IMG/VR virus record: IMGVR_UViG_2667527975_000008
DNA from: a virus
Taxonomy: Duplodnaviria > Heunggongvirae > Uroviricota > Caudoviricetes
Direction: 5' to 3' (one strand)
DNA length: 33,490 nucleotides
A model generated the notes under the pieces. It was not told the DNA's origin, did no database searches, and saw only the letters and a program-made list of their open reading frames with translations. The position numbers and the translations under genes are program-made. Shown here piece by piece: positions 1,933 through 29,166 of this stretch (the first letter of the stretch is position 1; each line of letters begins with the position of its first letter).

Positions 1933-3096
1933 TCACTCATCATCTTCTGTTTCGTACTCCACATCAGAAAGCCTGACCTCAAGCTCTAAGGACGTCGTGA
2001 AGCCGCTATTATTCAGAAAATGTGTCACCTTAGTGATTGTCCAGTCCTGCTCGTCTATGACGCGCTTAAAGCCAGACACTTTGACCGGTGTTTCCGTGTA
2101 AATATCTGCCCGACCGGTAGCCAGGCTGATGGAGAACTCCGCAACGCCCCGTTGCAGTTTATCCCACTTCGCCTGAGCGGCGCGCATGGCCTGCGCTTTC
2201 GTGGCATATACCGTGGTCAGGGCAAAAACGTTGTCAGCCTCACCGGCCATGTATTCACCTTCACGCGCTTCCGGTACTTTAGGCGCTTTCTTCTGCCTGA
2301 CCGGTTTCGCTTTCGGGTGCTCCAGTGCGCGCAGGTGTTTCTCTTTCTTTTTGCGTTTCAGTTTTACCTTCTGCTTTTGAGGCTTCGGGTCTTTGGTGTG
2401 TAGCCATTTTGCCGTTACACCGGTGTAGGCTCCACGGTCAGCAATCGCAAAATGATGGCGGTCGCCGTCGCTGCGGGTTATGGTGACCTGCGGGATTTTT
2501 TTACCGCTGGCCGTCACTCCCTGCCCCGCTTTGAGAAACAACAGTTTTCCCATTTTTACCGACACCTCACCGCCGTTGCGTTCAGCAAGGCGGGTCAGGA
2601 ATTTTGCATCAGACTCCTGCGACTGGTCGATGTGCGGGATTTTAATTCCGGCCAGTGACGGCGCGACACTGGCTTCCAGCCTGTTACGGGAGGCTATCAC
2701 CTCAACAATCGCACCGAGCGTGGTGTCATGCCAGGAGCCTTCACGGCGGGAATTGAGCGTCCCGCGGAAATCTGCACTCCGGGCGCGGATGGTAACCACA
2801 TCCGGCGCGCCCCGGTGTTCAACCTCATCAACGGTAAATTTCCCTTTGCATACCAGGGCAAAACCTTTCCAGCCGATATACACCGTCAGGACAGCGCCAC
2901 GAATCGGTAGCCCGACCTGCCCGTCGGCGTCGTTCAGTTCAATATCAAGCTGGTCAGCCTCAAAGCCCCGGTTATCCGTCAGGGTCATGCTCATCAGACG
3001 GTCGCTGATATTGCCGGTAATATCCCTGCTGTCGAGCATCAGCATGTAATCCGGCGTCAGCGTACTGCCTGCATCAAATGTCAGCGCATCCAGCAT
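1933..3096 (-). CDS. D: Tail protein D (late control gene D)
   Basis: 387-aa ORF with the lysine-rich central linker typical of P2 gpD; position between ogr and U. Confidence 0.9.
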   Translation of the reverse strand: MLDALTFDAGSTLTPDYMLMLDSRDITGNISDRLMSMTLTDNRGFEADQLDIELNDADGQVGLPIRGAVLTVYIGWKGFALVCKGKFTVDEVEHRGAPDVVTIRARSADFRGTLNSRREGSWHDTTLGAIVEVIASRNRLEASVAPSLAGIKIPHIDQSQESDAKFLTRLAERNGGEVSVKMGKLLFLKAGQGVTASGKKIPQVTITRSDGDRHHFAIADRGAYTGVTAKWLHTKDPKPQKQKVKLKRKKKEKHLRALEHPKAKPVRQKKAPKVPEAREGEYMAGEADNVFALTTVYATKAQAMRAAQAKWDKLQRGVAEFSISLATGRADIYTETPVKVSGFKRVIDEQDWTITKVTHFLNNSGFTTSLELEVRLSDVEYETEDDE

Positions 3097-3575
3097 TATC
3101 CCGCCTCCGTCATACCCGTGAATTTAGTCGCCATACTGCCAGCCTTACCGATGAGCGATTCCGCCTGTTTACCGATATCGCCATAAAGCGCGGCCAGTGA
3201 TTCATCAACGCGGGTGAGCGACAGCGTAAAATCAATTTTTCGGGGTGTGCCGTCTGCAAAGAAAATACTCCCTGTTTCACTCACCTTACTGATGACATAC
3301 ATGCCGTAAATCATGCCGGTGCCATCCAGCAACGGCCACGCCCGACCTTCCTCTGCCATCAGCCTGAGCGTGGTCATCGTCAGCTTGCCGCCGGTCAGTT
3401 CGGGATAAAGCACACCGGCCAGCGTGATGTTTTCCTCACCCACACCGAGAAACTGAAAGGCATCCCGTTTGCCGATACGGGAATTTGACGGCCAGCGATA
3501 ATCTGATTCACGCTGCATGGTCTGGTGTGGCAGCGTCTGGCGCATAAAAACAAACATACCTAACGCGAGCATCAT
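3096..3575 (-). CDS. U: Tail protein U
   Basis: 159-aa ORF in the gpU position; stop overlaps the D start. Confidence 0.85.
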   Translation of the reverse strand: MMLALGMFVFMRQTLPHQTMQRESDYRWPSNSRIGKRDAFQFLGVGEENITLAGVLYPELTGGKLTMTTLRLMAEEGRAWPLLDGTGMIYGMYVISKVSETGSIFFADGTPRKIDFTLSLTRVDESLAALYGDIGKQAESLIGKAGSMATKFTGMTEAG

Positions 3576-3589
3576 TTTTCGTCACCTCC

Positions 3590-6037
3590 TTAACCGTCAT
3601 GCATCATGCTGGCACGGGCGCGCGCACGTTTATCCCGCTCGTATTTTTCGAGCGCATCCTGTAACTGGCGGTCGAGCTGAGTCCCCGGTGCAGTACCGCC
3701 CGTCAGACTGATGTGATATTCGTTTTTACTCTGGTCCACATAAGAGCGGCCAGCCGGTGCCGTGACTGGCTGATAAGCCTGATAGCCTGCATAAGAGCTG
3801 GTCGCCGGAATATAACCACCGGTACCATACGTGGCGGCATGAGTCCTTGCGGCGGTCTGGTCAAGTGTGTCTGACTCTTTGTTGATAACACCGAGTTTTT
3901 CCAGTACCCAGTCAATACCGCTGCGCAGTTTGTTGAACGCATTAAGCGGCAGCATCAACGCGTCAGCCAGCGCCTGCCCGAACATGACGCCCGTGTCACG
4001 GCAACGGTTCAGGGTGTCCTGTGTGGCTTTAACCGGGGCAATCAGGTTTGTAAACCACTGCCACGCGGCCTGTAACTTTTCGCCCAGCCAGTCAAACACC
4101 GGCTTAAGTGGCGTGAAAAGTTCCCCCACCGGCGCAAATGCCGCTTTCAGCCCTTCAACCACACCGCCAAAGAATGCGCTGACAGGCTCCCAGTATTTAC
4201 GGATAAGCAACGCCCCGGCGACAATGGCGGCCACCACGGCCACAACCGGCCAGCTAATAGCCCCGATGGCGGTCATAACAGCACTGCCAACCGTCGTGAA
4301 GACTGCCCCCATTGCGCCTGCTGCCGCGATGATGGCATTGATGCCGGTGATAACCGGCCAGGCTACGAGGCCAATGGCACCGATGATGCCAGTAAGCGCC
4401 AGCGCGCCACCGGCAATGATGCCGATGGTTGACGCCAGTGATTTGTTTTTCTGGATCCAGCCGTCGAGTTTTAACACATACTTTGTGGCCGTCTGCGTGA
4501 GCTTACGCAGCGCGCCTTCCTGCTGGTCAAACAGGTCAGTCCCCACTGCCTCATAAGCGGACTGAAACTCTTTAAAGTCACCGCCTAGGTTGTCCTGCAT
4601 GATATTTACCAGCTCGGCAGTCTTCCCGTCTGAGGCTTTAAACGCAGCGGTCAGTTTGTCCAGCTTTCCGGTTGATGCGGCAGTCATCAGCACGGCGGCG
4701 GCTGAGCTGGCCTCCTCCCCGAAAATAGTTTTCATGTATTCAGCCTGCTGGGCAGTACCGAGCCGGTTTTTCTCAAAACTGGCCTGCATTTCTTTCAGAA
4801 TGGTAAATACTGGTCGGGTGTTTCCCTTGCTGTCTGAGGTTTTCACTCCAAGCTCTTTGAGTGCATCCCATGCTTTTCCCGTCGGTGCCTGCAGGCGGCT
4901 TAACACGGCACGGCTTCCCGTCCCCGCCATTGAGCCTGTGATTTTTGCATCATGCAGCGCCCCGACCATTGCGGCGGTTTCTTCAATGCTGACACCGGCA
5001 TTTTTTGCCACAGGTGCGGCATAGGTCAGCGCATCGCTCATGCCGTCAAAATCGGCGGCGGTTTTGTTCATCGTCATGGAGAGAACATCCCCGATATGAG
5101 CGACCTTATCGTTTGAAAGCTGAAAGGCGGATTTCATCCCCATCAGCAGGGCGGCGTTTTCTTCCATCGTGCGGCGGTTCGCCAGCGCCATATTCAGCGT
5201 GACCGGCGTTGCCGCCTGAATAGCCGCAGCATCTCCACCCGCTTTCGCAATGATAATCTGCGCACCGGCCGCATCATCTGCCGAGGCTGCGGTATTGTCG
5301 CCGAGCTGGCGCGCCTGTTTGCGGAGCGCGGCCATTTCGGCGGAATCTTTTGCCACACCGAGCACGGCCTGCAATTCTGAGTTTTTCTGCGCAAACTCAT
5401 AACCGGGCATCAGCAGCTTAACTCCGGCCATCGTTCCCGCCGCCGCAATCCCCACACCGGCAGCGCCCACCGAGGCCATATTTCCGGCCAGTTCTTTTCC
5501 GGCCTGATAACGCTGTTTTACTGCGTTAAGTTTTGCCTGTTGTGCACTGACACGCGCCAGCGCATCACGCTGCCGGTTAAGCTGTGCGGTGGTTTCACTG
5601 ATACGGTTTTTCAGTCCCTGCTCATCATGTGCAAGATTGCGGGTATTAATTCCCACAGCGGCCAGTTCCCGCTGCTGGCGTTTAACAGAATCCGTCAGGC
5701 GGTTATATTTCGCCTGTAAGTCCTCCGCCGCACGCTTTGCGGATTCCAGCACTTTCGCCTGAGCACGGGTCGGACGTTCGGTATTTTTAAACTGTGTGGC
5801 AAGGGCTTCGGCTTCCTGCCGTGCCTTTTCAAGTGCATGACCAGTCACGGCGAGCTGTGCACTGGTCTTGCGGAATCCCTCAATACGGGATGCGTGACCG
5901 TTCAGCTCGCGCAGTGATTTTTGTGTTTCCCGGATATCCCCCGACAGCGACTTGCTCGCTGTGCGGATGGATTTAAACGGGCGGGATGCCTGGTCAACAG
6001 CCCTGAGCAATACCTGTAATTTTACATTGTTACTCAT
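3590..6037 (-). CDS. T: Tail tape measure protein T
   Basis: 815-aa ORF with coiled-coil N-terminus and Gly/Ala-rich hydrophobic segments typical of tape measure proteins; position between E and U. Confidence 0.9.
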   Translation of the reverse strand: MSNNVKLQVLLRAVDQASRPFKSIRTASKSLSGDIRETQKSLRELNGHASRIEGFRKTSAQLAVTGHALEKARQEAEALATQFKNTERPTRAQAKVLESAKRAAEDLQAKYNRLTDSVKRQQRELAAVGINTRNLAHDEQGLKNRISETTAQLNRQRDALARVSAQQAKLNAVKQRYQAGKELAGNMASVGAAGVGIAAAGTMAGVKLLMPGYEFAQKNSELQAVLGVAKDSAEMAALRKQARQLGDNTAASADDAAGAQIIIAKAGGDAAAIQAATPVTLNMALANRRTMEENAALLMGMKSAFQLSNDKVAHIGDVLSMTMNKTAADFDGMSDALTYAAPVAKNAGVSIEETAAMVGALHDAKITGSMAGTGSRAVLSRLQAPTGKAWDALKELGVKTSDSKGNTRPVFTILKEMQASFEKNRLGTAQQAEYMKTIFGEEASSAAAVLMTAASTGKLDKLTAAFKASDGKTAELVNIMQDNLGGDFKEFQSAYEAVGTDLFDQQEGALRKLTQTATKYVLKLDGWIQKNKSLASTIGIIAGGALALTGIIGAIGLVAWPVITGINAIIAAAGAMGAVFTTVGSAVMTAIGAISWPVVAVVAAIVAGALLIRKYWEPVSAFFGGVVEGLKAAFAPVGELFTPLKPVFDWLGEKLQAAWQWFTNLIAPVKATQDTLNRCRDTGVMFGQALADALMLPLNAFNKLRSGIDWVLEKLGVINKESDTLDQTAARTHAATYGTGGYIPATSSYAGYQAYQPVTAPAGRSYVDQSKNEYHISLTGGTAPGTQLDRQLQDALEKYERDKRARARASMMHDG

Positions 6038-6457
6038 TCGTGTTTCCGCTTCGCCGGAGCGCCTTTTCGCGCCATGTGATGAGTTCGGTCAGGCTCATGG
6101 GATACAGTTCTGATGGCGGCCAGTGAAATATCACTGCCACATCCGCCATCAGGTCATCGACCGACAGATTTTTCGGGAACGTTACTGCACCGAGTTCGGC
6201 GACAAAAAACCGACCACCTTACCGGCCAGCGCCACAAGGTCAGGCAGTTCCAGTGCGGCGACTTCCTGCTCGGTCAGCATCGGTGCCGTCATGCGCGGCA
6301 GCACCTTAATCAGTGCATCGACTTCGGAGTTTGCGACCGCAGCCAGACTGACACCGCGCAGCGTCCCGGCGTTAGGTTTCATCAGCGTGACCTGTTCGAT
6401 AACCTGCTCACCACGTTTGACCGGATTGTCCAGGGTAATGACGTTTTCTTTGTTCAT
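6030..6457 (-). CDS. E': Tail assembly chaperone E+E', made by programmed -1 ribosomal frameshift at T_TTT_TTG (plus-strand caaaaaa, 6203..6209)
   Basis: Hand translation of the -1 frame after the slippery site gives VAELGAVTFPKNLSVDDLMADVAVIFHWPPSELYPMSLTELITWREKALRRSGNTNE*, ending at 6030 and overlapping the T start (ATGAGTAA). Confidence 0.8.
6182..6457 (-). CDS. E: Tail assembly chaperone E
   Basis: 91-aa ORF ending ...KVVGFLSPNSVQ; contains the slippery heptamer used for E'. Confidence 0.9.
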   Translation of the reverse strand: MNKENVITLDNPVKRGEQVIEQVTLMKPNAGTLRGVSLAAVANSEVDALIKVLPRMTAPMLTEQEVAALELPDLVALAGKVVGFLSPNSVQ

Positions 6458-6513
6458 GGTTTTCTCACTTCTGAATCGGGGTTAACCGGTCAGCCTGACT
6501 GACCGGATGAAAA

Positions 6514-7032
6514 TTACAGGCCGATATTGCGGCGGTGTTGCTCCAGCCGGTCGACGCCGTTCACCTTCTCAATCATGTTGATGGTGTCAATTTCGACCAG
6601 CTCCTTACCGTCCATCGTCAGCCGGAAATAGGTGCAGACCACGGAGATTTTCGACTCAGTGTCTTCTCCCTGTTTACCCTCGCCGGTGTCGATTTCTTTC
6701 TGACGTCCACGCATGACCACTTCGACGGCCACCGTTTCGCCGGTATCGTCGCGCTGGTAAGAGCCTGCAAAACGAATCGGCACGGCATCCACACCGGTTG
6801 CGGCGTAAAGCTCCCAGATAACCGAATCCGGGAAGCCACCGAGCGACCACTCCATTGACAGCGCATCGTCATCAAGGCCGAGGTCTACCGGTGCGCTGCC
6901 GTTCATCCCCGCACCGCGATAGTTTTCGAGTTTACGGGTCAGTTTTGGCAGCGTGACGGACTTTGCAACGCCCTGATAGCTGTAGCCGTTCAGAAAGACG
7001 TTCATTAACTTGAGTTTGCGCGGCATTGCCAT
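6514..7032 (-). CDS. FII: Tail tube protein FII
   Basis: 172-aa ORF in the conserved FI-FII-E-T order. Confidence 0.9.
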   Translation of the reverse strand: MAMPRKLKLMNVFLNGYSYQGVAKSVTLPKLTRKLENYRGAGMNGSAPVDLGLDDDALSMEWSLGGFPDSVIWELYAATGVDAVPIRFAGSYQRDDTGETVAVEVVMRGRQKEIDTGEGKQGEDTESKISVVCTYFRLTMDGKELVEIDTINMIEKVNGVDRLEQHRRNIGL

Positions 7033-8294: not shown

Positions 8295-8888
8295 CTATTT
8301 GTCCCGGTTGGCTAAGGGATGACACAATTTATTCTTTGTCGCTGATGAGGGGAATTTTTTATAGAGCGTGGACAGGCCAATATCAAAAATCAGCGCCACG
8401 CGTTGACGTGATTCACCCGCAGCCAGCAACCGTCCTGCCTGTTCCCACTCACTCGCGGTGAGCTTCGGACGTCTGCCACCAATACGACCTTTAGCTCTGG
8501 CCGCTTCCAGTCCGGCGCGTGTCCGCTCGACAATGAGTTCTCGTTCCATTTCAGCCAGGGCACCCATCACATGAAAGAAAAAACGCCCCATCGGCGTGCT
8601 GGTATCAATAGCATCCGTCAGGCTGCGAAAATTAACGCCGCGTTCGCGCAGTTCCTCAACCAGAATGACCAGATGCCGCATACTACGCCCCAGCCTGTCC
8701 AGCTTCCAGACCACCAGTGTATCCCCCTCCGATAATGTCCTGAGCAGTTTTTTCAGTCCCGGTCGGTCGGACTTAGTGCCGCTGATTTTATCCTCAAAAA
8801 TCAGCTCACATCCTGCGCACTCCAGCGCGTTACGCTGCAATTCCGTGTTCTGGTCATTTGTTGACACGCGTACATAGCCAATAAGCAT
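8295..8888 (-). CDS. Serine recombinase / DNA invertase (Gin/Cin/Pin/Hin family) for tail-fibre switching
   Basis: Product MLIGYVRVSTNDQNTELQRNAL...VVWKLDRLGRSM...MGRFFFHVMGALAEMERELI...GGRRPKL with C-terminal HTH; the catalytic Ser motif and near-identity to Gin over the N-terminal 140 aa are recognisable by eye. Start taken at the second Met; the track ORF starts 6 nt upstream (8894). Confidence 0.9.
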   Translation of the reverse strand: MLIGYVRVSTNDQNTELQRNALECAGCELIFEDKISGTKSDRPGLKKLLRTLSEGDTLVVWKLDRLGRSMRHLVILVEELRERGVNFRSLTDAIDTSTPMGRFFFHVMGALAEMERELIVERTRAGLEAARAKGRIGGRRPKLTASEWEQAGRLLAAGESRQRVALIFDIGLSTLYKKFPSSATKNKLCHPLANRDK

Positions 8889-8943
8889 GAGCATCCCCCT
8901 GAATAAAAACCGGAGATGATGCCAGTTGCCCGTTATCTCTGCA

Positions 8944-8969
8944 TTTTCATAAACGTTGGTTTGGGAGAA
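8944..8969. repeat. Invertase crossover site, left (gix/cix-like 26 bp)
   Basis: ttttcataaacgttggtttgggagaa; reverse complement TTCTCCCAAACC-AA-CGTTTATGAAAA. The half-site TTCTCCCAAACC is shared, in inverted orientation, with the site at 10830..10855. Confidence 0.75.
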
Positions 8970-9308
8970 GCGGCTAAAAGGAATGTAGGGACAGGGGCGA
9001 ATCAGATACCTGATATGGGTAGCTTCACGCTTTCTGTTTCAGGTACTGGATATCAAAAATTACCATCAGGTTTTATTCTTCAGTGGGGCTCAATCGGCGC
9101 ACCAGGCATTGCACAGGATGTAGTAACCCATTTCCCGATTGCATTTCCAAACAGATGTCTGCGTGTTTTGGTCTCACAAGACTACACACCAGATAGCGGG
9201 GCTGTTGGTTATATTGCCTGTGCAGGTTTTAGTCCCGACCCGGTTAAATTTATATCCAGAGCCAGTACTCCTGGCCTCGGCGCTTCATTTTTAGCGTTAG
9301 GCTGTTAA
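8970..9308 (+). CDS. Alternative tail-fibre C-terminal segment (Hv'), silent in this orientation; no own start codon
   Basis: Open frame runs through the left crossover site (..FINVGLGE|[12 protein letters not shown]...). It would fuse to the constant part of H (..LAYLGLGE) after inversion. The track's N-terminal Met at 8916 is an ORF-caller artefact. Confidence 0.65.
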
Positions 9309-9329
9309 TTTAGCTATATGGAGTGAAAA

Positions 9330-9770
9330 ATGAATTACATATATTCCGCGACTACAAACTCTTTCTATCCGCTGGAGATGAAAGAGGATTACACTCAAGC
9401 TGACTCATGGCCAGATGATGCTGTTGAAGTTGATGAGCAAGTGTATATTGAGTTTTCCGGATTACCGCCGAAAGGAAAAATCCGTATCGCTGGAGAAAAT
9501 GGTTTTCCTGCATGGTCTGAAATTCCACCACCAACACATGAGGAACAAATTGCTGCAGCCGAATTGGAGAAGCAGCAATTGATTAATCAGGCCAACGATT
9601 ATATGAACAGTAAACAATGGCCTGGTAAAGCGGCTATTGGTCGTCTGAAAGGTGACGAACTGGCGCAATATAATTTGTGGCTGGATTACCTGGACGCACT
9701 GGAACTGGTCGATACTTCCGGTGCGCCAGATATTGAATGGCCTACGCCTCCGGCAGTTCAGGCCAGATGA
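9330..9770 (+). CDS. Tail fibre assembly protein, alternative copy (tfa', paired with Hv')
   Basis: 146-aa ORF with the conserved N-terminal Tfa region (YIYSATTNSFYP...); converges on and overlaps the 3' end of the opposing tfa. Confidence 0.8.
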   Translation: MNYIYSATTNSFYPLEMKEDYTQADSWPDDAVEVDEQVYIEFSGLPPKGKIRIAGENGFPAWSEIPPPTHEEQIAAAELEKQQLINQANDYMNSKQWPGKAAIGRLKGDELAQYNLWLDYLDALELVDTSGAPDIEWPTPPAVQAR

Positions 9771-10344
9771 CATCCGGCGCGGTGCTGGTATCTGTTGCCG
9801 TCACCGCGTCAATGTAATCCAGCACAGCGTTAAGCCGGGTTGTTTCTGCCTGCGTCAGTTTACGTCCGGCCTGCAATTTCAGTTGAATCAGACTGATGGA
9901 AGCCATTGCAGTATCAATCAGCGACTGGCGCTGTGCTTCTGCTGCATCTACTGCGGCGCTATGCTGTGCCTCAGTATCGGTCACCCATTTCTCACCATCC
10001 CATTTATCGTATGGCGTTAATGGGGCGATAGTGGTTGTATTTTCAGGGTAATCACCCGGAGCGGTGATTTCTTTTGATTCTCCTGTTTTGGTGCTATAGA
10101 CCGTTTCACCGCGATGGTCTGGCACATATTCCCATGAGTTAAAATCTGCAGAACGGCAGATTGCATAACCAGCCTTATGTGTGCCAGGGGCATCTAAACA
10201 GGAACATGCCGGAATGCCGACACCAACGGCAAGATATTCATTTGAAGTGGAAATATATTCCCGTGTTTCACCATCATAGTTATAAACGGTAATATCCCCT
10301 GCCTTTGTTGCAATGAGCTCACTATTTAATATTGCTTTATGCAT
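9742..10344 (-). CDS. G: Tail fibre assembly protein (G-like), in the expressed orientation
   Basis: 200-aa ORF directly downstream of H with stop/start overlap; the C-terminal region resembles that of tfa' (..TSTAPDVIWPELP vs ..TSGAPDIEWPTPP). Confidence 0.8.
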   Translation of the reverse strand: MHKAILNSELIATKAGDITVYNYDGETREYISTSNEYLAVGVGIPACSCLDAPGTHKAGYAICRSADFNSWEYVPDHRGETVYSTKTGESKEITAPGDYPENTTTIAPLTPYDKWDGEKWVTDTEAQHSAAVDAAEAQRQSLIDTAMASISLIQLKLQAGRKLTQAETTRLNAVLDYIDAVTATDTSTAPDVIWPELPEA

Positions 10345-21365: not shown

Positions 21366-23138
21366 ATGACCATCACCACAGACACCACTCTTTTACACGA
21401 CCCGCGTCGTCAGGCGGCGCTGCTGTACTGGCAGGGATTTTCCGTGCCGCAGATTGCCGCCATGTTGCAGATGAAACGCCCGACGGTGCAGAGCTGGAAA
21501 CAGCGCGACGGCTGGGACAGCGTTGCCCCCATCAGCCGTGTCGAAATGAGTCTGGAAGCGCGACTGACCCAGCTCATCATCAAACCGCAGAAAACCGGCG
21601 GTGACTTCAAGGAAATTGACCTGCTCGGACGCCAGATTGAACGACTGGCACGGGTCAACCGTTACAGTCAGACCGGCAACGAGGCAGACCTTAATCCGAA
21701 CGTTGCTAACCGCAACAAAGGCGGGCGGCGCAAACCGAAAAAGAATTTTTTCAGTGACGAGGCCATCGAAAAGCTGGAGCAGATTTTCTTTGAGCAGTCT
21801 TTCGACTACCAGTTGCACTGGTATCGCGCCGGGCTTGAGCACCGCATCCGCGATATCCTGAAATCCCGCCAGATTGGCGCAACGTTTTATTTTTCCCGCG
21901 AGGCGCTGCTGCGCGCCCTGAAAACCGGTCATAACCAGATTTTTCTGTCAGCCAGTAAAACGCAGGCGTATGTGTTCCGCGAATACATCATCGCCTTTGC
22001 CCGTCTGGTTGACGTTGACCTGACCGGTGACCCGATTGTCCTGGGCAATAACGGCGCAAAACTGATTTTTCTCGGCACCAACTCCAACACCGCGCAGAGC
22101 CATAACGGCGACCTGTACGTCGACGAGATTTTCTGGATCCCGAATTTTCAGGTACTGCGTAAGGTGGCATCAGGTATGGCCTCACAGAGTCACCTGCGCT
22201 CGACCTATTTCTCCACCCCGTCCACGCTGGCGCACGACGCCTATCCGTTCTGGTCCGGTGAACTGTTCAACCGGGGACGCGCCAGCGCCGCTGAACGCGT
22301 GGAAATCGACGTCAGTCATAACGCACTTGCCGGTGGGCTTCTCTGTGCGGACGGCCAGTGGCGGCAGATTGTCACCATTGAGGACGCCCTGAAAGGTGGC
22401 TGCACGCTGTTCGACATTGAGCAGCTTAAACGCGAAAACAGCGCCGACGATTTTAAAAACCTGTTCATGTGTGAATTTGTTGACGACAAGGCGTCGGTAT
22501 TCCCGTTCGAGGAGCTGCAACGCTGCATGGTCGACACGCTGGAAGAATGGGAAGACTATGCGCCGTTTGCCGCCAATCCGTTCGGCTCCCGCCCGGTATG
22601 GATTGGTTACGACCCGTCACACCGTGGCGACAGTGCCGGATGCGTGGTGCTGGCACCGCCGGTGGTGGCCGGTGGCAAATTCAGAATACTTGAGCGTCAC
22701 CAGTGGAAAGGCATGGACTTTGCCACCCAGGCTGAATCCATCCGCAAACTCACCGAAAAATATAACGTTGAATACATCGGTATTGATGCCACCGGCCTCG
22801 GTGTCGGCGTGTTCCAGCTCGTGCGCTCGTTCTATCCCGCCGCGCGCGATATCCGCTACACGCCGGAAATGAAAACCGCAATGGTGCTCAAGGCAAAAGA
22901 CGTTATCCGCCGAGGCTGTCTGGAGTATGACGTCAGCGCCACCGACATCACCAGCTCGTTTATGGCTATCCGCAAGACCATGACCAGCAGCGGACGCAGC
23001 GCCACCTATGAGGCCAGCCGCAGCGAGGAAGCCAGCCACGCCGACCTCGCCTGGGCGACCATGCACGCCCTGTTAAATGAGCCACTCACCGCCGGTATCA
23101 GCACTCCGCTGACATCCACCATTCTGGAGTTTTACTGA
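21366..23138 (+). CDS. P: Terminase ATPase (large) subunit P
   Basis: 590-aa product from MTITTDTTLLHDPRRQAALLYWQG...; divergent from O as in P2. Confidence 0.9.
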   Translation: MTITTDTTLLHDPRRQAALLYWQGFSVPQIAAMLQMKRPTVQSWKQRDGWDSVAPISRVEMSLEARLTQLIIKPQKTGGDFKEIDLLGRQIERLARVNRYSQTGNEADLNPNVANRNKGGRRKPKKNFFSDEAIEKLEQIFFEQSFDYQLHWYRAGLEHRIRDILKSRQIGATFYFSREALLRALKTGHNQIFLSASKTQAYVFREYIIAFARLVDVDLTGDPIVLGNNGAKLIFLGTNSNTAQSHNGDLYVDEIFWIPNFQVLRKVASGMASQSHLRSTYFSTPSTLAHDAYPFWSGELFNRGRASAAERVEIDVSHNALAGGLLCADGQWRQIVTIEDALKGGCTLFDIEQLKRENSADDFKNLFMCEFVDDKASVFPFEELQRCMVDTLEEWEDYAPFAANPFGSRPVWIGYDPSHRGDSAGCVVLAPPVVAGGKFRILERHQWKGMDFATQAESIRKLTEKYNVEYIGIDATGLGVGVFQLVRSFYPAARDIRYTPEMKTAMVLKAKDVIRRGCLEYDVSATDITSSFMAIRKTMTSSGRSATYEASRSEEASHADLAWATMHALLNEPLTAGISTPLTSTILEFY

Positions 23139-24172
23139 TGAGCAAGAAAAAAGGGAAAACACCGCAACCTGCGGCAAAAACAATGACCGCCAGCGCCCCG
23201 AAAATGGAGGCATTCACCTTTGGTGAGCCGGTGCCGGTACTCGACCGCCGTGACATTCTGGATTACGTCGAGTGCATCAGTAACGGCAGATGGTATGAGC
23301 CGCCGGTCAGCTTTACCGGTCTGGCAAAAAGCCTGCGTGCTGCCGTGCATCACAGCTCGCCGATTTACGTTAAACGCAATATTCTGGCTTCAACGTTTAT
23401 TCCGCATCCGTGGCTTTCTCAGCAGGATTTCAGCCGCTTTGTGCTGGATTTTCTGGTGTTCGGTAATGCGTTTCTGGAAAAGCGTTACAGCACCACCGGT
23501 AAGGTCATCAGACTGGAAACCTCACCGGCAAAATATACCCGCCGTGGGGTGGAGGAGGATGTTTACTGGTGGGTGCCGTCCTTCAACGAGCCGACAGCCT
23601 TCACGCCCGGCTCCGTGTTTCACCTGCTGGAGCCGGATATCAATCAGGAGCTGTACGGCCTGCCGGAATATCTCAGCGCCCTTAATTCTGCCTGGCTGAA
23701 TGAATCAGCCACACTGTTCCGCCGCAAGTATTACGAAAACGGCGCTCATGCCGGATACATCATGTACGTCACTGATGCCGTGCAGGATCGCAACGATATC
23801 GAAATGCTCCGCGAAAACATGGTGAAGTCGAAAGGCCGCAACAACTTTAAAAATCTGTTTCTCTATGCCCCACAGGGGAAAGCCGACGGCATTAAAATTA
23901 TCCCCCTCAGTGAAGTGGCAACGAAAGACGATTTTTTTAATATCAAAAAAGCCAGCGCCGCTGACCTGCTGGACGCGCACCGCATTCCCTTTCAGTTGAT
24001 GGGCGGCAAGCCGGAGAACGTCGGGTCACTGGGTGATATTGAGAAAGTGGCAAAGGTCTTTGTCCGCAATGAGCTTATCCCGCTACAGGACAGGATCCGC
24101 GAGATAAACGGCTGGCTCGGTCAGGAGGTCATCCGATTTAAAAACTACTCACTGGACACTGACAACGACTGA
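23138..24172 (+). CDS. Q: Portal protein Q
   Basis: 344-aa ORF whose start overlaps the P stop. Confidence 0.9.
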   Translation: MSKKKGKTPQPAAKTMTASAPKMEAFTFGEPVPVLDRRDILDYVECISNGRWYEPPVSFTGLAKSLRAAVHHSSPIYVKRNILASTFIPHPWLSQQDFSRFVLDFLVFGNAFLEKRYSTTGKVIRLETSPAKYTRRGVEEDVYWWVPSFNEPTAFTPGSVFHLLEPDINQELYGLPEYLSALNSAWLNESATLFRRKYYENGAHAGYIMYVTDAVQDRNDIEMLRENMVKSKGRNNFKNLFLYAPQGKADGIKIIPLSEVATKDDFFNIKKASAADLLDAHRIPFQLMGGKPENVGSLGDIEKVAKVFVRNELIPLQDRIREINGWLGQEVIRFKNYSLDTDND

Positions 24173-24341: not shown

Positions 24342-24360
24342 GTGCTTTCCCCGCCTCGCC
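24342..24360. other. cos site (19-nt cohesive-end sequence)
   Basis: gtgctttccccgcctcgcc is the reverse complement of the P2 cohesive end GGCGAGGCGGGGAAAGCAC as I recall it. Confidence 0.8.
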
Positions 24361-24597: not shown

Positions 24598-25539
24598 ATG
24601 CAAGGTAAAGTTGACGAACCGCAACCAAATGAGATTATTTCGGAGTTTGGATACTATCCAGTAGAAGTTAACATTGAGACTGAACAATTTTCTTTGCGTA
24701 CTTTACCCAATCTCATTGAGAAAGTGGAACATGTTAACAATGATAAAAACGTTGTTAATGGTTGGATATACCCTGGAAATAAAAAGGTATATAATCTCAA
24801 TGGTGGTATATCCACAATGCCTTATAGTCACCGAGTATTCGGCATGCCCAAAACACACACACTAAAATTAAAAAATACATCCTCGTTAGAAACTCTCAAC
24901 TTTGTTGTGTGGTGTCTATCTTTTTTCAAGGGTATAAGATTGACAACCACTGACGCTGGTTTTCTTGATGCAACCACTATCAAGCCCACTAAGTTAACCG
25001 ACTTTATTCTCGTTGGATGCTCTGAAAAAGAAGTAATAGAGCTCGCACTTAACTATATAAAAGAAAAACAAAAAGATGAACGTTCCATTAAAAGAATAGC
25101 TGCGGTGATACATTCCCTATTCCTGTCACATAACCCACTATACCTTTCCTTTGAGAAATTCCAGTATCTTTATATGGCTCTTGATTGCTGTTTTGCTATA
25201 GCATGGGACGAAAGGGATAAAGTCATTAAAAAGAAAAAACCATCTCATCAAAATAGAGTATATTGGATGTGCGAAAATTACGGTATAAAAATCCCGTCAT
25301 GGGCAACAGATGAATGTAATGTTTCAGTTATACGCAATGATAATTTTCATGAAGCCATTTTTAATGGGCAACCGCTTGGTTTTTCTAGTATCAACGATTG
25401 TCAACATGGTAGCGATATATTGCTACAAATGCAGGCTCTGGTGTGTCGTTTACTAGCGGCAATACTCTCTGTAAATGATCGTAAATATATCGCATCTACA
25501 ATCAACTCGATAGAGTACCGTTCATTAAAATTAACTTAA
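24598..25539 (+). CDS. Hypothetical cargo protein in the tin/old-position hotspot; possible HEPN-like RNase motif
   Basis: 313-aa AT-rich ORF with an SD (ggag) upstream; no family recognised. Contains R-N-D-N-F-H (residues about 246-251; nt 25333..25350), which fits the R-[N]-x3-H pattern of HEPN domains. Confidence 0.5.
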   Translation: MQGKVDEPQPNEIISEFGYYPVEVNIETEQFSLRTLPNLIEKVEHVNNDKNVVNGWIYPGNKKVYNLNGGISTMPYSHRVFGMPKTHTLKLKNTSSLETLNFVVWCLSFFKGIRLTTTDAGFLDATTIKPTKLTDFILVGCSEKEVIELALNYIKEKQKDERSIKRIAAVIHSLFLSHNPLYLSFEKFQYLYMALDCCFAIAWDERDKVIKKKKPSHQNRVYWMCENYGIKIPSWATDECNVSVIRNDNFHEAIFNGQPLGFSSINDCQHGSDILLQMQALVCRLLAAILSVNDRKYIASTINSIEYRSLKLT

Positions 25540-25569
25540 TGCTAACGCCTCACTTCGTTCGTTGTTCAA

Positions 25570-25608
25570 CCCCGCCAGCACTGAAAACATGTTTCATTGC
25601 TGGCGGGG
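25570..25608. terminator. 39-bp imperfect palindrome; probable bidirectional terminator between convergent cargo transcription units
   Basis: ccccgccagca...tgctggcgggg arms (11 bp) around an internally palindromic loop (aacatgtt). Confidence 0.45.
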
Positions 25609-25612
25609 TTCT

Positions 25613-25765
25613 CTATCGTCTGCGTGGTGGCGGCGCAAGGCTGGACTGACCGATATAGTTAAGCTGTTCGTAATTATCCCTGACTATTTCGGCACACCCG
25701 ACTAGCTCATCGGGCGTCAGATTTTCGTTGACCATAATCTGCTGTAAACGGTGAACAATGGCCAT
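25613..25765 (-). CDS. Possible small ORF (50 aa) in a GC-normal stretch inside the hotspot
   Basis: ATG..TAG frame MAIVHRLQQIMVNENLTPDELVGCAEIVRDNYEQLNYIGQSSLAPPPRRR, below the 60-aa track cutoff; weak SD; its composition differs from the flanking AT-rich genes. Confidence 0.25.
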   Translation of the reverse strand: MAIVHRLQQIMVNENLTPDELVGCAEIVRDNYEQLNYIGQSSLAPPPRRR

Positions 25766-25859
25766 CAACCTGACACTTTTGGTGTTATATGTGGTATCTC
25801 ACATGAGATTACTGACCAAGGTGCATCTTGGTTGACTCATTTCATATCCATCCACACCA

Positions 25860-26540
25860 CTACATCTTTATTGCATATTTATTAAAAGACGCCCAGTTCA
25901 ACAAAAAAACATTATTCATATACCATTCAATATAATTTTTATTTTTAGATTGACTGTCAAGTAGCACACAAACATCAACCTGTTTATCAATCAATTTTGA
26001 AATATAAACCACAAACTCAACACTCGAATATCTCTTTGTGCCTAGCAAATATAATATTTCATCTGACAAATAATTAGACTCATGTGAAAAGACATTATCA
26101 TTTAACAAAATCAATCCGCCAATCGAGTCATTTAAATCCAAAACATCCTTTGTTGCATTTATTTGCTTATTAGCTTCCTTAACTACCTTTGTTTTAATAT
26201 TTTCATAAGCAAAGTTTATTATATCATTTCTAAATCGCTTTGAGTCTGGGTGTCTTTTTATCAACTCTTCTAAATGAATAGCACCATGCCAGTTTTTTGC
26301 AAGCCAACTATCTGTTTTAACCAACTCATTCAGTTTATCATTGACATTCTTGACCCTGTCAGAAAAAAGACTTTTCATCTCCAAAATTATCTTTTTATTA
26401 TCAATAAGATAATCTGCCATCTTGCGATTCTGACCATCCTTCATCCGGAACTTATGATGAATATCATCAATAGAAATCCCTTTTTCATGCTCAACAATGA
26501 ATCTCTTAATATTGTTTTCTAATTCGCTGTATTGTTTCAT
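25860..26540 (-). CDS. Hypothetical cargo protein (226 aa), downstream partner of the small DUF2158-like gene
   Basis: Very AT-rich ORF, Lys/Asn-rich; no motif recognised; lies 27 nt downstream of the preceding small ORF on the same strand. Confidence 0.5.
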   Translation of the reverse strand: MKQYSELENNIKRFIVEHEKGISIDDIHHKFRMKDGQNRKMADYLIDNKKIILEMKSLFSDRVKNVNDKLNELVKTDSWLAKNWHGAIHLEELIKRHPDSKRFRNDIINFAYENIKTKVVKEANKQINATKDVLDLNDSIGGLILLNDNVFSHESNYLSDEILYLLGTKRYSSVEFVVYISKLIDKQVDVCVLLDSQSKNKNYIEWYMNNVFLLNWASFNKYAIKM

Positions 26541-26567
26541 ACTTTCCCCCGTGAATTTTATTGTGAT

Positions 26568-26762
26568 TCACTTACGTGGACGACACAGCATACCACTTTT
26601 ACTCTCTGCTATTTCCAGTAAATCAATGGAGAATGACTCCTCGTGCAAAACTCCTTCTTTATCATGCCAAATACATTTAGCATGAGTCTCAGTAGAGTCA
26701 GATACAGTCATTTTAAATCCACCGCTTTTCAAACAAACAACATCTGCAGGCTTTAACATTTT
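26568..26762 (-). CDS. Small protein, DUF2158/YodC-like (about 64 aa)
   Basis: MLKPADVVCLKSGGFKMTVSD... resembles the N-terminal pattern of YodC-family small proteins; GGAG lies 6 nt upstream of this ATG. The track ORF (to 26843) is probably over-extended. Confidence 0.45.
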   Translation of the reverse strand, partial: KMLKPADVVCLKSGGFKMTVSDSTETHAKCIWHDKEGVLHEESFSIDLLEIAESKSGMLCRPRK

Positions 26763-26886
26763 TGTCTCCAACATTTTTAAGTAATGCATTATAACATAAT
26801 GATATTGACGTAGATTTAATGCATGCAACCATATAAAAAACAATCAATTACAGTCAAAACTGCTTAATACTGTATAGATGAGATCA

Positions 26887-29166
26887 TTACTCAAATTGAT
26901 GCCAAAATCCCGGCCACTCATCAGCGACCGGATACGTGAATTTTTTCCCGTCATAATTTACGGTCGCGCCACGCGCCAGCGCCTCAAGCTCCCATCGCTG
27001 CGGCCTGATACCGTTCTGAGCAAGGTCAACGCGGATACGGGTGATTTGCAATCGTTCAGACCGGCTCAGTCTGGCCGATGGTGCAATTTCATACGGTTTT
27101 AACGGGCTTCCATTTCTTTGCTGACGGTTTGGTCTTCTCAGGCCGTGTTTTAATGCGCCCCTGAGCGCCCTCACGACCTCCGGGTCATTCCATTCGATAA
27201 CACCGTCATCAACCAGATTAAGCACTGCTGCGGCGTGCTCAGAAGGCGTGGAAGCCGGTAACGAAGTATCACCACCAGTAAGCTTTCCACAGTTATTGAC
27301 AGGACTCCGAGGCGCGGCGATGCCGCTTTTTAAAGTCAAAGGCTCAACGACCGGAACTTTCGGAACAATGCGCCAGTCCGTCGTTCTGGTGATATGAATA
27401 TGACGCGCGCCGAGATGCGGCGCGTAAATGCCGACCACTCTCTCGACTTCTTCCTCGTACTCGTTAACTTCATCCGACGGGCTACGGGCAACCCTGACAG
27501 TCTGACAATCGCGCGGGACATTTGCCCCACCCTGCGCGCTGATATACAACGCAAAATCACCACTGTCTGCGGCGGCGCGTGCAGCCTCGACGCGTTCGTC
27601 AAACTCATCAGCAATGCTGACGCCGCGAGGCAATTTGCGTAGTTCACGGTAAGCGCCCATTGTCGGCAGGCCAACCGTTTTAAATTGCGGGATACGCCAC
27701 GTTGACGCCCATGCGGTAACAGCCGCTGCAGTGTCTTTCAGCGGCCTGCCGGTATCGTTATCGAGCTGACCATCCAGTGCATAGCCGTCGATGTTTTTTG
27801 AGATGTATTTCGCGATATACCCCGCAGCACCGCCCCGGTTAAGGTGTTTTGCCTGAAAACGGTTTCGCGCAGCTCCTCTTTCGTCGCCATCCTCTTTGAG
27901 TGCGTAGCGACGCATGATTTCGATAATCTGGTTACGCTGGCGCGGATTACAAAAAAGCATCATATGCCAGTGCGGCGTTCCGTCGTGGTGTGGCTCGACG
28001 ACACGCAAACCGTAGACCTGTAAATCATTATCCTTGAATGCCGTGCGCATCAGGCTCCAGATATGGCAGAGATAACGCTGCGCATCCTTTGGATTAAATG
28101 CCTCATCGTTCCAGCCGTGATTTAGCTGGACGGTTTTACTTTCGCCTTTTCCGACCTGACGTGTCGGGTGATACTTTGACGGCGCGGTCAGCGTGATAAA
28201 CATCCCCACATCACCCTCTGCTGCGGCGTAACGCTCAATACCGGCAATGGTGTTCATCAGCTCCATCCGGCGAATTTCAGGATTAGAAATACTGCCCATC
28301 ACCTTACTGATAAGGTCGATGCGCTCGCCGGTTTCCCTGTTTTCAAGGTCACACGATTTAAGAAATTCCAGATTTGCCTGGCGGCGTGCACGTACATCAC
28401 GAATGGCATGTTTACTGGCATAAGGAGAACGGTCTTTATTCACCTCCCCGACAGCAATCAGTAACGCCTCATGCCAGCGCATACGCTGGCCTTTAAGCTG
28501 ATGAGTCCACCACTCATCGTTAAACAGACGGGCAATGGCAGAATATGCCTGCCTCGTGGTCATCTGTCCTTTACGGTATTTTTTCCAGTAGAGAGGGGAA
28601 ATATTGAAAGCTCGTGCAGCGCCAGCAACATGACCATACAGGTGATCCTGAGCCTCATCCGTAAACAGTGATTCTTTTTCGCCATGCGCATCCACCCAGG
28701 CATCGCTGAGTTCCTCATACATCATGAAAAGCTGCGATGAGATACGGGCGGCAAACTTTTTCAGCTCCTTGTCATTCATTCCCGGCAGGCGCGCATAGTG
28801 GTCACGCTCTGCCAGAAACAGCAACGACGCGTCGGTGTTCATTTCATGGCGCTGATTCACACGCTCAATGCGCGGCCATAAACGACGCTGAAAAGTGGAT
28901 GTGAGGAAATAAAACCCGTGCACCGGGCTTTTATTGCGCCGGATGTAGTCATAGCGTGAAGTAAACAGCGAGCGCAAAAAGTAAGGCAGGCGGTTAATCG
29001 TGGATAAAACACCTTGCACCTGACGCATCTCGTCACGTGTAAGGGGTCTTTCGCGCCCGACGGCCTCGCGTGGCGCGTTCCATGCATAAGCACCGGTAAA
29101 CGTCTTACCGGTGCCTGCGGCAAATGCTGACGGAGGGACAAAACGCCCGGAGGCTTTAACGACCAT
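26887..29166 (-). CDS. A: Replication initiation protein A (rolling-circle nickase)
   Basis: Product from MVVKASGRFVPPSAFAAGTGK...; large ORF downstream of B/orf80-83. Confidence 0.9.
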   Translation of the reverse strand: MVVKASGRFVPPSAFAAGTGKTFTGAYAWNAPREAVGRERPLTRDEMRQVQGVLSTINRLPYFLRSLFTSRYDYIRRNKSPVHGFYFLTSTFQRRLWPRIERVNQRHEMNTDASLLFLAERDHYARLPGMNDKELKKFAARISSQLFMMYEELSDAWVDAHGEKESLFTDEAQDHLYGHVAGAARAFNISPLYWKKYRKGQMTTRQAYSAIARLFNDEWWTHQLKGQRMRWHEALLIAVGEVNKDRSPYASKHAIRDVRARRQANLEFLKSCDLENRETGERIDLISKVMGSISNPEIRRMELMNTIAGIERYAAAEGDVGMFITLTAPSKYHPTRQVGKGESKTVQLNHGWNDEAFNPKDAQRYLCHIWSLMRTAFKDNDLQVYGLRVVEPHHDGTPHWHMMLFCNPRQRNQIIEIMRRYALKEDGDERGAARNRFQAKHLNRGGAAGYIAKYISKNIDGYALDGQLDNDTGRPLKDTAAAVTAWASTWRIPQFKTVGLPTMGAYRELRKLPRGVSIADEFDERVEAARAAADSGDFALYISAQGGANVPRDCQTVRVARSPSDEVNEYEEEVERVVGIYAPHLGARHIHITRTTDWRIVPKVPVVEPLTLKSGIAAPRSPVNNCGKLTGGDTSLPASTPSEHAAAVLNLVDDGVIEWNDPEVVRALRGALKHGLRRPNRQQRNGSPLKPYEIAPSARLSRSERLQITRIRVDLAQNGIRPQRWELEALARGATVNYDGKKFTYPVADEWPGFWHQFE

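What the first reader, a model, noticed from the sequence alone, without database searches (positions are those of the whole stretch)
25860..26762. Two-gene minus-strand unit: DUF2158-like small protein upstream of a 226-aa orphan protein
The small ORF (MLKPADVVCLKSGGFKMTV...) has a good SD and sits 27 nt upstream of the 226-aa ORF on the same strand, suggesting co-transcription. A -10-like TTATAAT lies just upstream on the minus strand (about 26783..26789). The arrangement of a small protein followed by a larger effector resembles toxin-antitoxin or sensor-effector defence pairs, but neither protein has a recognisable catalytic motif.
Basis: inference. Interest (0 to 1): 0.7.

Follow-up and report, generated by a model that had tools for sequence, protein, structure and literature searches.

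The report
Candidate nuclease defence cassette, P2 prophage
Two adjacent genes in the known anti-phage cargo site of a P2-like E. coli prophage form a small mobile cassette: a tiny beta-barrel protein of unknown function followed by a predicted DNA-cutting enzyme from an undescribed family that sits among defence genes in other bacteria, so it is a plausible but untested new anti-phage module.

Summary
The two-gene unit is real: a 63-aa DUF2158 gene (26568..26759, minus strand) lies 27 nt upstream of a 226-aa gene (25860..26540). Both are under purifying selection. They follow a conserved extended -10 element (TGTTATAAT, 26788..26796). The unit lies in the gpA-to-cos/portal hotspot of a P2-like prophage, the site that holds old and tin in P2. 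The same locus was deposited in 2006 as P2-EC67 ORF73/ORF226/ORF313. Rousset et al. 2022 listed it but did not test it.

The small protein is an SH3/KOW-like barrel with a basic tail. In P2-like phages the pair always travels together, and it is sometimes the only cargo. A 64%-identical nuclease on Pantoea plasmids has no DUF2158 partner, so an obligate toxin-antitoxin relation is unlikely.

Best reading: an untested nuclease-based defence cassette with an accessory regulator. No database family or defence model matches it.

The parts
26788..26796 (-). Extended -10 promoter-like element TGTTATAAT, 29 nt upstream of the small gene's ATG
   Evidence: Read from the sequence. The pattern TGNTATAAT occurs twice in 33.5 kb against 0.57 expected. 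It is kept as TGATATAAT in the 77%-identical Citrobacter cassette, inside a well-conserved upstream block. The strict -35/-10 scan did not list it because there is no good -35. Function is inferred.
26766..26769 (-). Shine-Dalgarno GGAG for the small gene, 6 nt before the ATG at 26759
   Evidence: Sequence; conserved in Citrobacter.
26568..26759 (-). Gene 1: 63-aa DUF2158 (YodC-family) protein. It has an SH3/KOW-like five-stranded beta-barrel (residues 7-50) and a disordered basic tail (51-63).
26541..26567 (-). 27-nt intergenic spacer with GGGGGA (26545..26550) as the ribosome-binding site for gene 2; no terminator
   Evidence: Sequence; terminator scan negative here. The spacer is 41 nt in Citrobacter and also carries a GAGG.
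25860..26540 (-). Gene 2: 226-aa predicted PD-(D/E)xK (restriction-endonuclease-fold) nuclease, the same gene as P2-EC67 ORF226
26373..26414 (-). Codons for the predicted catalytic hairpin, D43 ... E54-x-K56 ('MADYLIDNKKIILEMKS')
   Evidence: D43 is present in 144/144, E54 in 146/146 and K56 in 146/146 aligned cluster representatives (<=50% mutual identity). Q126 is present in 143/143 and N147 in 137/140. D43, E54, K56, Q126 and N147 are the invariant columns in the 45-sequence MAFFT alignment. D43 immediately precedes strand 44-46, and E54/K56 lie in strand 51-57 of the model.
25870..26852 (-). Extent of the mobile cassette (promoter region, DUF2158 gene, nuclease gene)
   Evidence: This is the only part of the hotspot shared with a Citrobacter freundii P2-like prophage (77% nt identity). 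GC content is 30-37% against 50-59% in the flanking P2 core genes. The Yersinia phage vB_YpM_46 homology stops at 25800.
26887..29166 (-). Context: gpA replication endonuclease, the left border of the hotspot
   Evidence: RefSeq annotation of the 96.8%-identical locus; Phage_GPA Pfam hits in related loci.
25613..25768 (-). Context: 51-aa ORF inside a ~260-bp segment (about 25542..25800) that is conserved across P2-like phages. It separates the A-proximal slot (the pair) from the cos-proximal slot (ORF313).
   Evidence: The segment matches P2, Wphi and others at 86-91%. In Wphi it lies between orf91/orf92 and the variable cargo. PHROG 11386, unknown function.
24598..25539 (+). Context: ORF313, a convergent and separately inherited cargo gene of unknown function; not part of the pair
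   Evidence: Present without the pair in Yersinia phages. Absent from Citrobacter and metagenomic P2-like loci that keep the pair. Its alleles are 80-94% identical where the pair is 98-100% identical. No Pfam, PADLOC or PDB match.
24342..24360 (-). Context: a 19-nt sequence that I recall to be the P2 cos cohesive end; it would be the right border of the hotspot before the portal gene Q (23138..24172)
   Evidence: Exact single match, 0 expected by chance. The identity of the motif as P2 cos rests on my own recall, not on a tool result.

Best explanation
The finding is a self-contained, horizontally acquired cassette of about 1 kb. It sits in the gpA-proximal slot of the gpA-to-cos/gpQ anti-phage hotspot of a P2-like E. 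coli prophage, where P2 and Wphi carry orf91.

Proposed mechanism: the cassette is transcribed as one mRNA from its own extended -10 promoter, probably in the lysogen, with possible read-through from gene A during lytic growth. Gene 2 encodes the effector, a Mg2+-dependent PD-(D/E)xK nuclease with catalytic residues D43 and E54-x-K56. The nuclease degrades the DNA of superinfecting phages, or cellular DNA in an abortive response, and so protects the lysogen and the resident prophage. Gene 1 encodes a 63-aa SH3/KOW-like barrel with a basic tail. It acts as an accessory subunit that regulates or targets the nuclease. It is more likely a modulator or adaptor than an obligatory antitoxin, because close and distant homologues of the nuclease exist without it.

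Shown here:
- the gene structure, purifying selection on both genes, and the cassette boundaries;
- the position of the cassette in the hotspot;
- the fold and the invariant catalytic motif of the large protein;
- the fold of the small protein;
- defence genes next to distant relatives.

Inferred:
- co-transcription;
- nuclease activity and its substrate;
- anti-phage function;
- any physical or functional interaction between the two proteins.
For: Location:
- The window is a P2-like prophage, and the pair lies between gpA and cos/portal. This is the main P2 defence hotspot (PMC9122126; PMC13586616).
- The same locus is P2-EC67 ORF73/ORF226/ORF313. It is listed as 'DUF2158 + hypothetical + hypothetical' in Rousset Table S5A.
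- Its low GC (30-37% against 50-59%) marks foreign cargo.

Nuclease:
- D43, E54, K56, Q126 and N147 are invariant across up to 149 diverse representatives.
- The model is confident.
- 13 of 45 relatives give weak hits to REase_DpnII-MboI, and no other family recurs.
- In fusion proteins the N-terminal Mrr_cat part has a degenerate motif, while the ORF226-like part keeps D..ExK.

Defence association of the family:
- Neighbours of distant relatives match PADLOC Old (1.8e-86), dCTP deaminase (1.9e-161), DUF4238-Pers (9e-8), PD-T7-4 (1e-5) and an Ago-associated REase (1e-16).
- Other relatives lie in an integrase/RepC island and in Tn7-like cargo.

Pairing:
- The pair is present together in 27 of 27 E. 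coli genomes that match, in 8 of 8 IMG/VR loci, and in 9 of 9 distinct contexts of the exact small protein.
- It is also together in Citrobacter and in three diverged metagenomic P2-like loci, where the pair is the only homologue of the hotspot cargo detected between gpA and the portal gene.
- The promoter-like element and ribosome-binding sites are conserved at 77% overall nucleotide identity.
- dN is 0.133 for both genes.
Against: - No experiment exists. Rousset et al. catalogued the locus but did not clone it.
- No PADLOC, Pfam or NCBIfam model matches the nuclease.
- The defence association rests on seven sampled contexts, not on a statistical enrichment.
- The Pantoea plasmid homologue (64% identity, catalytic residues intact) and all distant relatives lack DUF2158. 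The small gene may therefore be functionally independent.
- Pairing in P2-like phages could reflect physical linkage alone.
Confidence: 0.55

Rival explanations
1. Type II toxin-antitoxin or addiction module. ORF226 is a nuclease toxin and the upstream DUF2158 protein is its labile antitoxin. The module stabilises the prophage or triggers abortive infection when the antitoxin is lost.
For: - The gene order is that of a classic TA operon: a small gene first, a 27-nt gap, and a single promoter-like element.
- The small protein has a disordered C-terminal tail that could bind a partner.
- The pair co-occurs strictly in all P2-like contexts.
- One natural variant has a truncated nuclease (203 aa) with an intact small gene (L035). 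This is the direction of decay expected if the toxin can be lost first.
Against: - A 64%-identical nuclease with all catalytic residues is kept on Pantoea plasmids without any DUF2158 gene within 6 kb.
- Seven distant relatives are also solo.
- The small protein has an SH3/KOW-type fold, not a usual antitoxin DNA-binding fold (RHH, HTH, AbrB, Phd), and it is near neutral rather than a DNA mimic.
- No TA-family model matches either protein.
Confidence: 0.15
2. Two functionally independent cargo genes that merely share a slot. ORF226 is a stand-alone nuclease, for defence or another DNA transaction. The DUF2158 protein does something unrelated, as chromosomal YodC does.
For: - The nuclease family is overwhelmingly solo or has varied neighbours.
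- DUF2158 proteins exist as stand-alone chromosomal genes; for example yodC is an RpoS-dependent small protein (PMC5437024).
- Only the ORF226 coding sequence, not the small gene, is shared with the Pantoea plasmid, so ORF226 can move alone.
Against: - Across about 25% protein divergence the two genes keep their order, their close spacing and one upstream promoter-like element. They are the only homologues of the hotspot cargo detected between gpA and the portal gene in several phages.
- This DUF2158 subtype was found only next to ORF226. That held in 50,697 phage records (2 of 2) and in the protein collection.
Confidence: 0.2
3. A phage life-cycle or counter-defence function rather than host defence. 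For example, the nuclease could serve P2 replication or recombination, degrade host DNA, or interfere with satellites. It would be expressed with the early operon by read-through from gene A.
For: - The cassette lies immediately downstream of gene A and in the same orientation, with no predicted terminator between them.
- It replaces orf91, whose function is also unknown.
Against: - The cassette is present in only 27 of 5,426 complete E. coli genomes, while 2,173 genomes match the hotspot flanks. It is therefore dispensable, variable cargo.
- Its relatives are in bacterial defence islands, plasmids and transposons, not in phage core modules.
- It has its own conserved promoter-like element.
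Confidence: 0.1

Closest known systems
Cargo of the P2 gpA-gpQ ('tin-old') defence hotspot (Old, Tin, DUF4238, hp+hp+hp, DprA-PRTase and others; Rousset et al. 2022, PMC9122126)
   Same: It occupies the same genomic site, between gpA and cos/portal. It is AT-rich, swappable, self-promoted cargo. The locus itself is listed in their Table S5A.
   Different: It is not among the systems they tested. Its proteins are unrelated to their 'hp + hp + hp' system and to every PADLOC v2 model. It sits in the A-proximal sub-slot, which holds orf91 in P2 and Wphi.
PD-(D/E)xK restriction-endonuclease-fold nucleases, nearest Pfam model PF18742 REase_DpnII-MboI; best structural match the BsmI catalytic domain
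   Different: All Pfam hits are below the gathering score, and the window protein itself gives none. Foldseek finds nothing significant. There is no adjacent methyltransferase and no recognisable DNA-recognition domain. At 226 aa it is a minimal version; most relatives carry an extra helical C-terminal domain of about 110 aa.
Single-effector nuclease defences such as Shedu (SduA, DUF4263) and nuclease effectors such as NucC/Cap4
   Same: The proposed working principle is the same: a PD-(D/E)xK nuclease kept in check until infection. The genes reside in defence islands and on mobile elements.
   Different: There is no sequence match to SduA, NucC or Cap4 models in PADLOC or Pfam. No signal-producing enzyme is nearby. 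The partner is a 63-aa SH3-like protein instead of an N-terminal sensor domain.
Type II toxin-antitoxin operons
   Same: A small upstream gene and a larger downstream enzyme are closely spaced under one promoter-like element.
   Different: Co-occurrence is not strict (solo homologues). The small protein lacks a typical antitoxin fold. Toxicity is untested.
DUF2158 / YodC family of small proteins
   Same: The small protein passes the Pfam cut-off and has the same size class as YodC.
   Different: YodC is a stand-alone chromosomal, RpoS-dependent gene of unknown function. This subtype is phage-borne and was found only upstream of the nuclease.

Membership tests
Pfam PF09926 DUF2158 (small protein) | Score at or above the curated gathering cut-off (22.3 bits) | tested here: met
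   33.1 bits, E 4.7e-8, residues 6-46 against profile positions 4-48 of 50.
PD-(D/E)xK nuclease superfamily (ORF226) | Conserved acidic residue at the start of one core strand and (D/E)xK in the next strand | tested here: met
   D43 and E54-x-K56 are invariant in 144-146 aligned representatives. In the AF2 model they lie at strand 44-46 and in strand 51-57.
PD-(D/E)xK nuclease superfamily (ORF226) | Restriction-endonuclease-like alpha/beta core fold | tested here: inconclusive
PD-(D/E)xK nuclease superfamily (ORF226) | Metal-dependent phosphodiester cleavage | not testable with these tools
   Needs purified protein and active-site mutants.
Pfam PF18742 REase_DpnII-MboI | Score at or above the gathering cut-off (27 bits) | tested here: not met
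   The window protein gives no hit. The best relative reaches 17.7 bits. 13 of 45 relatives give only sub-threshold hits, best E 1.1e-3. ORF226 is related at most at superfamily level.
Known anti-phage systems in PADLOC-DB v2.0.0 (including Shedu, Old, PARIS, the PD-T series and PDC candidates) | Match to a system's protein models | tested here: not met
   No hit at E<=1 for either protein or for ORF313. Nothing recurs across 45 relatives.
Rousset 'hp + hp + hp' P2-hotspot system (pFR109) | Homology to its three proteins | tested here: not met
   The sequences in Table S2A differ. BLASTP E is 0.083 over 31 residues. hhalign probability is 0.2%.
Type II toxin-antitoxin module | Antitoxin and toxin genes adjacent in one operon | tested here: met
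   27-nt gap, no terminator, and a single conserved promoter-like element. Co-transcription itself was not measured.
Type II toxin-antitoxin module | The toxin does not persist without its cognate antitoxin (strict co-occurrence) | tested here: not met
   Pantoea plasmid and metagenomic homologues (64% identity, catalytic residues kept) lack DUF2158 within the DNA held.
Type II toxin-antitoxin module | Toxin is toxic alone and is neutralised by direct binding of the antitoxin | not testable with these tools
   Needs expression and interaction assays.
P2 gpA-gpQ defence-hotspot cargo | Variable genes located between gpA and cos/portal of a P2-like phage | tested here: met
   gpA at 26887 onwards, a 19-nt sequence I recall to be P2 cos at 24342..24360, and portal at 23138..24172. 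The locus is listed in Rousset Table S5A.
P2 gpA-gpQ defence-hotspot cargo | Demonstrated anti-phage activity | not tested
   The locus is absent from the tested sets in Tables S2A and S2B. No paper in the library mentions DUF2158 in a defence context.

The most novel reading that the evidence does not exclude
The pair may be a genuinely new two-component anti-phage system. In it, a DUF2158/YodC-type SH3-like mini-protein would act as the sensor or gatekeeper of a previously undescribed nuclease family. This would give the first function to DUF2158 and define a new nuclease clade resident in defence islands (348 clusters). A more speculative variant: the minimal enterobacterial nuclease is a solitary DpnII/MboI-like enzyme that uses host Dam methylation as its 'self' mark.
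Probability: 0.2. Interest if true: 0.6.

Novelty: new member of a known kind. Interest (0 to 1): 0.42.

Why it matters
About half of P2-like prophages carry no recognisable defence system in their hotspots (PMC13586616), and loci like this one make up that unexplained fraction. Confirming the cassette would have three consequences:
- It would add an unmodelled nuclease family, found across Proteobacteria next to Old, dCTP deaminase, DUF4238 and PD-T7-4 homologues, to defence catalogues such as PADLOC and DefenseFinder.
- It would give a first functional handle on the DUF2158/YodC family of small proteins.
- It would show that the P2 hotspot has two independently swapped slots separated by a conserved 260-bp segment.

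The cassette is small (about 1 kb) and carries its own promoter-like element, so it is easy to test.

Tried and rejected
1. Rst_3HP identity. I suspected the locus was Rousset's validated 'hp+hp+hp' system. Table S2A sequences and direct comparisons show it is not.
2. Domain fission. I asked whether the ~110-aa C-terminal extension of the 333-aa relatives is a fused DUF2158 domain. The extension is a conserved helical region with no similarity to DUF2158, so I rejected the idea.
3. Pseudo-complex structure prediction.
   - A linker fusion misaligned the small homologues and would have been inadmissible.
   - I abandoned this route and modelled the small protein alone.
4. AFDB Foldseek was not available. 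Foldseek against the PDB gave no significant hit.
5. Sequence searches against the PDB:
   - ORF226 profiles returned only spurious hits, to eS17, L-asparaginase 2 and shikimate kinase.
   - The small protein returned nothing.
   - ORF313 returned nothing meaningful.
6. Two genome-contig scans found nothing. The plasmid collection (PLSDB) has no homologue of either protein.
7. The broad alignment was too divergent for a viral-contig scan.
8. A naturally disrupted small gene (P0285) lies at a contig end, so the state of the nuclease gene there cannot be read.
9. Weak single hits were discarded as noise: AbiJ_NTD4 E 0.29, Tape_meas_lam_C, RQC_minor_2 E 0.0087 and CHORD.
10. The strict sigma-70 scan does not list the extended -10. 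It lists a weaker TTGACT-18-TATGGT site at 26857..26828, so the transcription start remains uncertain.

Full report
**What is there.** The window is a P2-like prophage of E. coli. It is 99.9% identical over the region to strain PCP06173. The finding lies between the replication gene A (26887 onwards, minus strand) and the portal gene Q (23138..24172). A 19-nt sequence that I recall to be the P2 cos cohesive end lies at 24342..24360. This interval is the main anti-phage hotspot of P2-like phages, the site that holds old and tin in P2 (PMC9122126; PMC13586616).

Read from gene A towards cos, the interval holds the following:
- an extended -10 element, TGTTATAAT (26788..26796, minus strand);
- GGAG at 26766..26769;
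- a 63-aa ORF (26759..26568);
- a 27-nt spacer with GGGGGA;
- a 226-aa ORF (26540..25860);
- a ~260-bp segment conserved among P2-like phages, which carries a 51-aa ORF (25768..25613);
- a convergent 313-aa ORF (24598..25539).

The same three genes were deposited in 2006 as P2-EC67 ORF73, ORF226 and ORF313, all annotated as hypothetical. RefSeq names the small one 'DUF2158 domain-containing protein'.

**Checking the observation.** The physical description holds, with small corrections. The small ORF starts at 26759, not 26762. TTATAAT is at 26788..26794, not 26783..26789. The 63-aa start is preferred over the annotated 73-aa start because Citrobacter homologues begin at the equivalent Met. Both genes are under purifying selection against the Citrobacter copies: dN/dS is 0.20 for the small gene and 0.08 for the large one, and dN is 0.133 for both. 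The small protein passes the Pfam DUF2158 cut-off. No terminator-like site separates gene A, the small gene and the large gene. The upstream block with the extended -10 and both ribosome-binding sites is conserved in a cassette that is only 77% identical overall. Two statements fail: the large protein is not an orphan, and it does have a catalytic motif.

**The large protein.** A word-indexed search found only close enterobacterial relatives, at 64% identity or more. An exhaustive profile search then found 348 cluster representatives at E<=1e-3 and 76 at E<=1e-10. They fall into three size classes:
- about 220-260 aa;
- about 330-345 aa, with an extra helical C-terminal region;
- a few 600-740-aa fusions.

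Across 149 representatives, D43, E54 and K56 are invariant wherever aligned. So are Q126 and, nearly, N147. These five are the invariant columns of an independent 45-sequence alignment. The consensus reads (K/R)ADY(L/F)L...(I/V)xExKSL...D...K...AxKQIxxTK...GxLxxLN(D/E).

In a census of weak Pfam hits over 45 diverse relatives, 13 hit REase_DpnII-MboI (PF18742). No other family recurs, and all of these hits are below threshold. In the long fusions the N-terminal Mrr_cat-like part has lost its ExK, whereas the ORF226-like part keeps it. This pattern fits the ORF226-like domain being the catalytic one. I conclude with about 0.8 confidence that ORF226 is a PD-(D/E)xK nuclease of a family that Pfam, NCBIfam, PHROGs (function unknown) and PADLOC do not describe.

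**Is the pair a unit?** In P2-like phages the answer is yes:
- All 27 matching genomes among 5,426 complete E. coli genomes carry both genes.
- So do 2 of 2 phage records, 8 of 8 IMG/VR loci, and 9 of 9 distinct contexts of the exact small protein, one of them with a truncated 203-aa nuclease.
- A Citrobacter freundii prophage shares only window 25870..26852, which is the promoter region plus both genes.
- Three metagenomic P2-like loci with 67-76% identical gpA keep the pair at 74-77% identity. There the pair is the only homologue of the hotspot cargo detected between gpA and the portal gene.

ORF313 is a separate module. It occurs without the pair in Yersinia phages. It is absent where the diverged pairs occur. 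Its alleles differ by up to 20% where the pair is 98-100% identical. In Wphi and P2 the slot next to gene A holds orf91/orf92, followed by the same conserved 260-bp segment and then the variable cargo. The hotspot therefore has two independently swapped slots.

Outside phages the answer is no. A 64%-identical homologue on Pantoea ananatis IncFII-type conjugative plasmids shares only the coding sequence, keeps the catalytic residues, and has no DUF2158 gene within 6 kb. None of seven distant relatives has a DUF2158 neighbour.

**Context of the wider family.** The neighbours of distant relatives are as follows:
- a P2 Old homologue (PADLOC E 1.8e-86), with a 66-aa KTSC protein just upstream of the nuclease;
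- a dCTP-deaminase defence gene (1.9e-161) in Tn7-like cargo;
- a DUF4238 protein (9e-8), with BrnTA and a Schlafen-like ATPase nearby;
- a PD-T7-4-like protein (1e-5);
- an Ago-associated REase-like protein (1e-16), with a MORC-like ATPase nearby;
- an integrase/RepC island;
- an operon with an unknown 786-aa protein.

This is the company defence genes keep. However, it is a sample of seven contexts, not a statistical test.

**Mechanism.** The best-supported reading (0.55) is a prophage-borne cassette with its own promoter whose effector is the nuclease. The small barrel protein would be an accessory regulator or adaptor, and the cassette would protect the lysogen against other phages. The rivals are:
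- a toxin-antitoxin or addiction pair (0.15), weakened by the solo homologues and by the fold of the small protein;
- two independent genes that share a slot (0.20);
- a phage life-cycle or counter-defence role (0.10), made unlikely by the cassette's rarity and by where its relatives reside.

Co-transcription, nuclease activity, substrate, phenotype and interaction are all inferred.

**Comparison and novelty.** The sequence was already public and is catalogued in Rousset Table S5A. It was not among the systems they tested. It is unrelated to their 'hp+hp+hp' system. It matches no defence model. It works like other nuclease-based defences, such as restriction-fold effectors and Shedu-type single nucleases, but it is not a member of any named family. 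I rate it a new member of a known kind, of moderate interest. It is a cheap and well-delimited candidate for experimental testing, and it offers a possible first function for DUF2158.

Noticed in passing
window 24598..25539 (+): ORF313 (the same gene as P2-EC67 ORF313; PHROG 5937) is a separate cargo gene with no Pfam, PADLOC or PDB match. It occurs without the pair in Yersinia pestis phages such as vB_YpM_46. It shows 80-94% allelic variation where the pair is 98-100% identical. It is an untested hotspot gene in its own right.
   Followed up: partly
window about 25542..25800, including the 51-aa ORF at 25613..25768 (-): A ~260-bp segment is conserved at 86-91% in P2, Wphi and many Peduoviruses. 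It splits the gpA-cos hotspot into an A-proximal slot and a cos-proximal slot, and it may serve as a recombination anchor. RefSeq labels its small ORF 'meiotically up-regulated 80 protein', which looks like an annotation artefact.
   Followed up: partly
window 8295..10344: A serine invertase (Resolvase + HTH_7, 8295..8894, minus strand) lies next to opposed tail-fibre C-terminus and tail-fibre-assembly genes (8916..9770 on the plus strand; 9742..10344 on the minus strand), with short inverted repeats. This looks like a Gin/Cin-type invertible host-range switch in the tail-fibre region.
   Followed up: partly
L009 2397..2597 and 2866..3867 (Mitsuaria sp. BK037): A distant relative of the nuclease is preceded on the same strand by a 66-aa KTSC-domain protein and sits next to a P2 Old homologue. 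The arrangement of a small protein upstream of the nuclease resembles the DUF2158 pair. Whether small upstream partners recur in the family was not surveyed.
   Followed up: no
proteins P0042, P0046, P0047, P0055, P0062, P0111, P0129 (563-739 aa): These fusion proteins have an N-terminal Mrr_cat-like domain whose ExK motif is degenerate and an ORF226-like domain with an intact D..ExK at about residues 340-525. P0062 also ends in a SEC-C zinc motif, as does the shorter P0084. They may be sensor-effector single-chain versions of the family.
   Followed up: partly
L035 2626..3237 (CP030214.1): A natural variant has a truncated 203-aa nuclease gene next to an intact small gene.
   Followed up: no
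L008 7305..8057 (Citrobacter freundii P2-like prophage): A 250-aa predicted membrane protein is inserted between cos and the portal gene, outside the usual gpA-cos hotspot. This may be another cargo site.
   Followed up: no
window 26218..26226 (-): A second TGNTATAAT (TGATATAAT) lies inside the ORF226 coding sequence on the coding strand. It is probably a chance match in AT-rich DNA but could be an internal promoter.
   Followed up: no
L004-L007 (Pantoea ananatis plasmids), around 4963..6723: The solo ORF226 homologue carries a 14-aa C-terminal extension. It lies between a PLDc_2 (Nuc-like) nuclease gene and the transfer genes of an IncFII-RepA conjugative plasmid, next to Macro-domain and PemK genes in some variants.
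   Followed up: no
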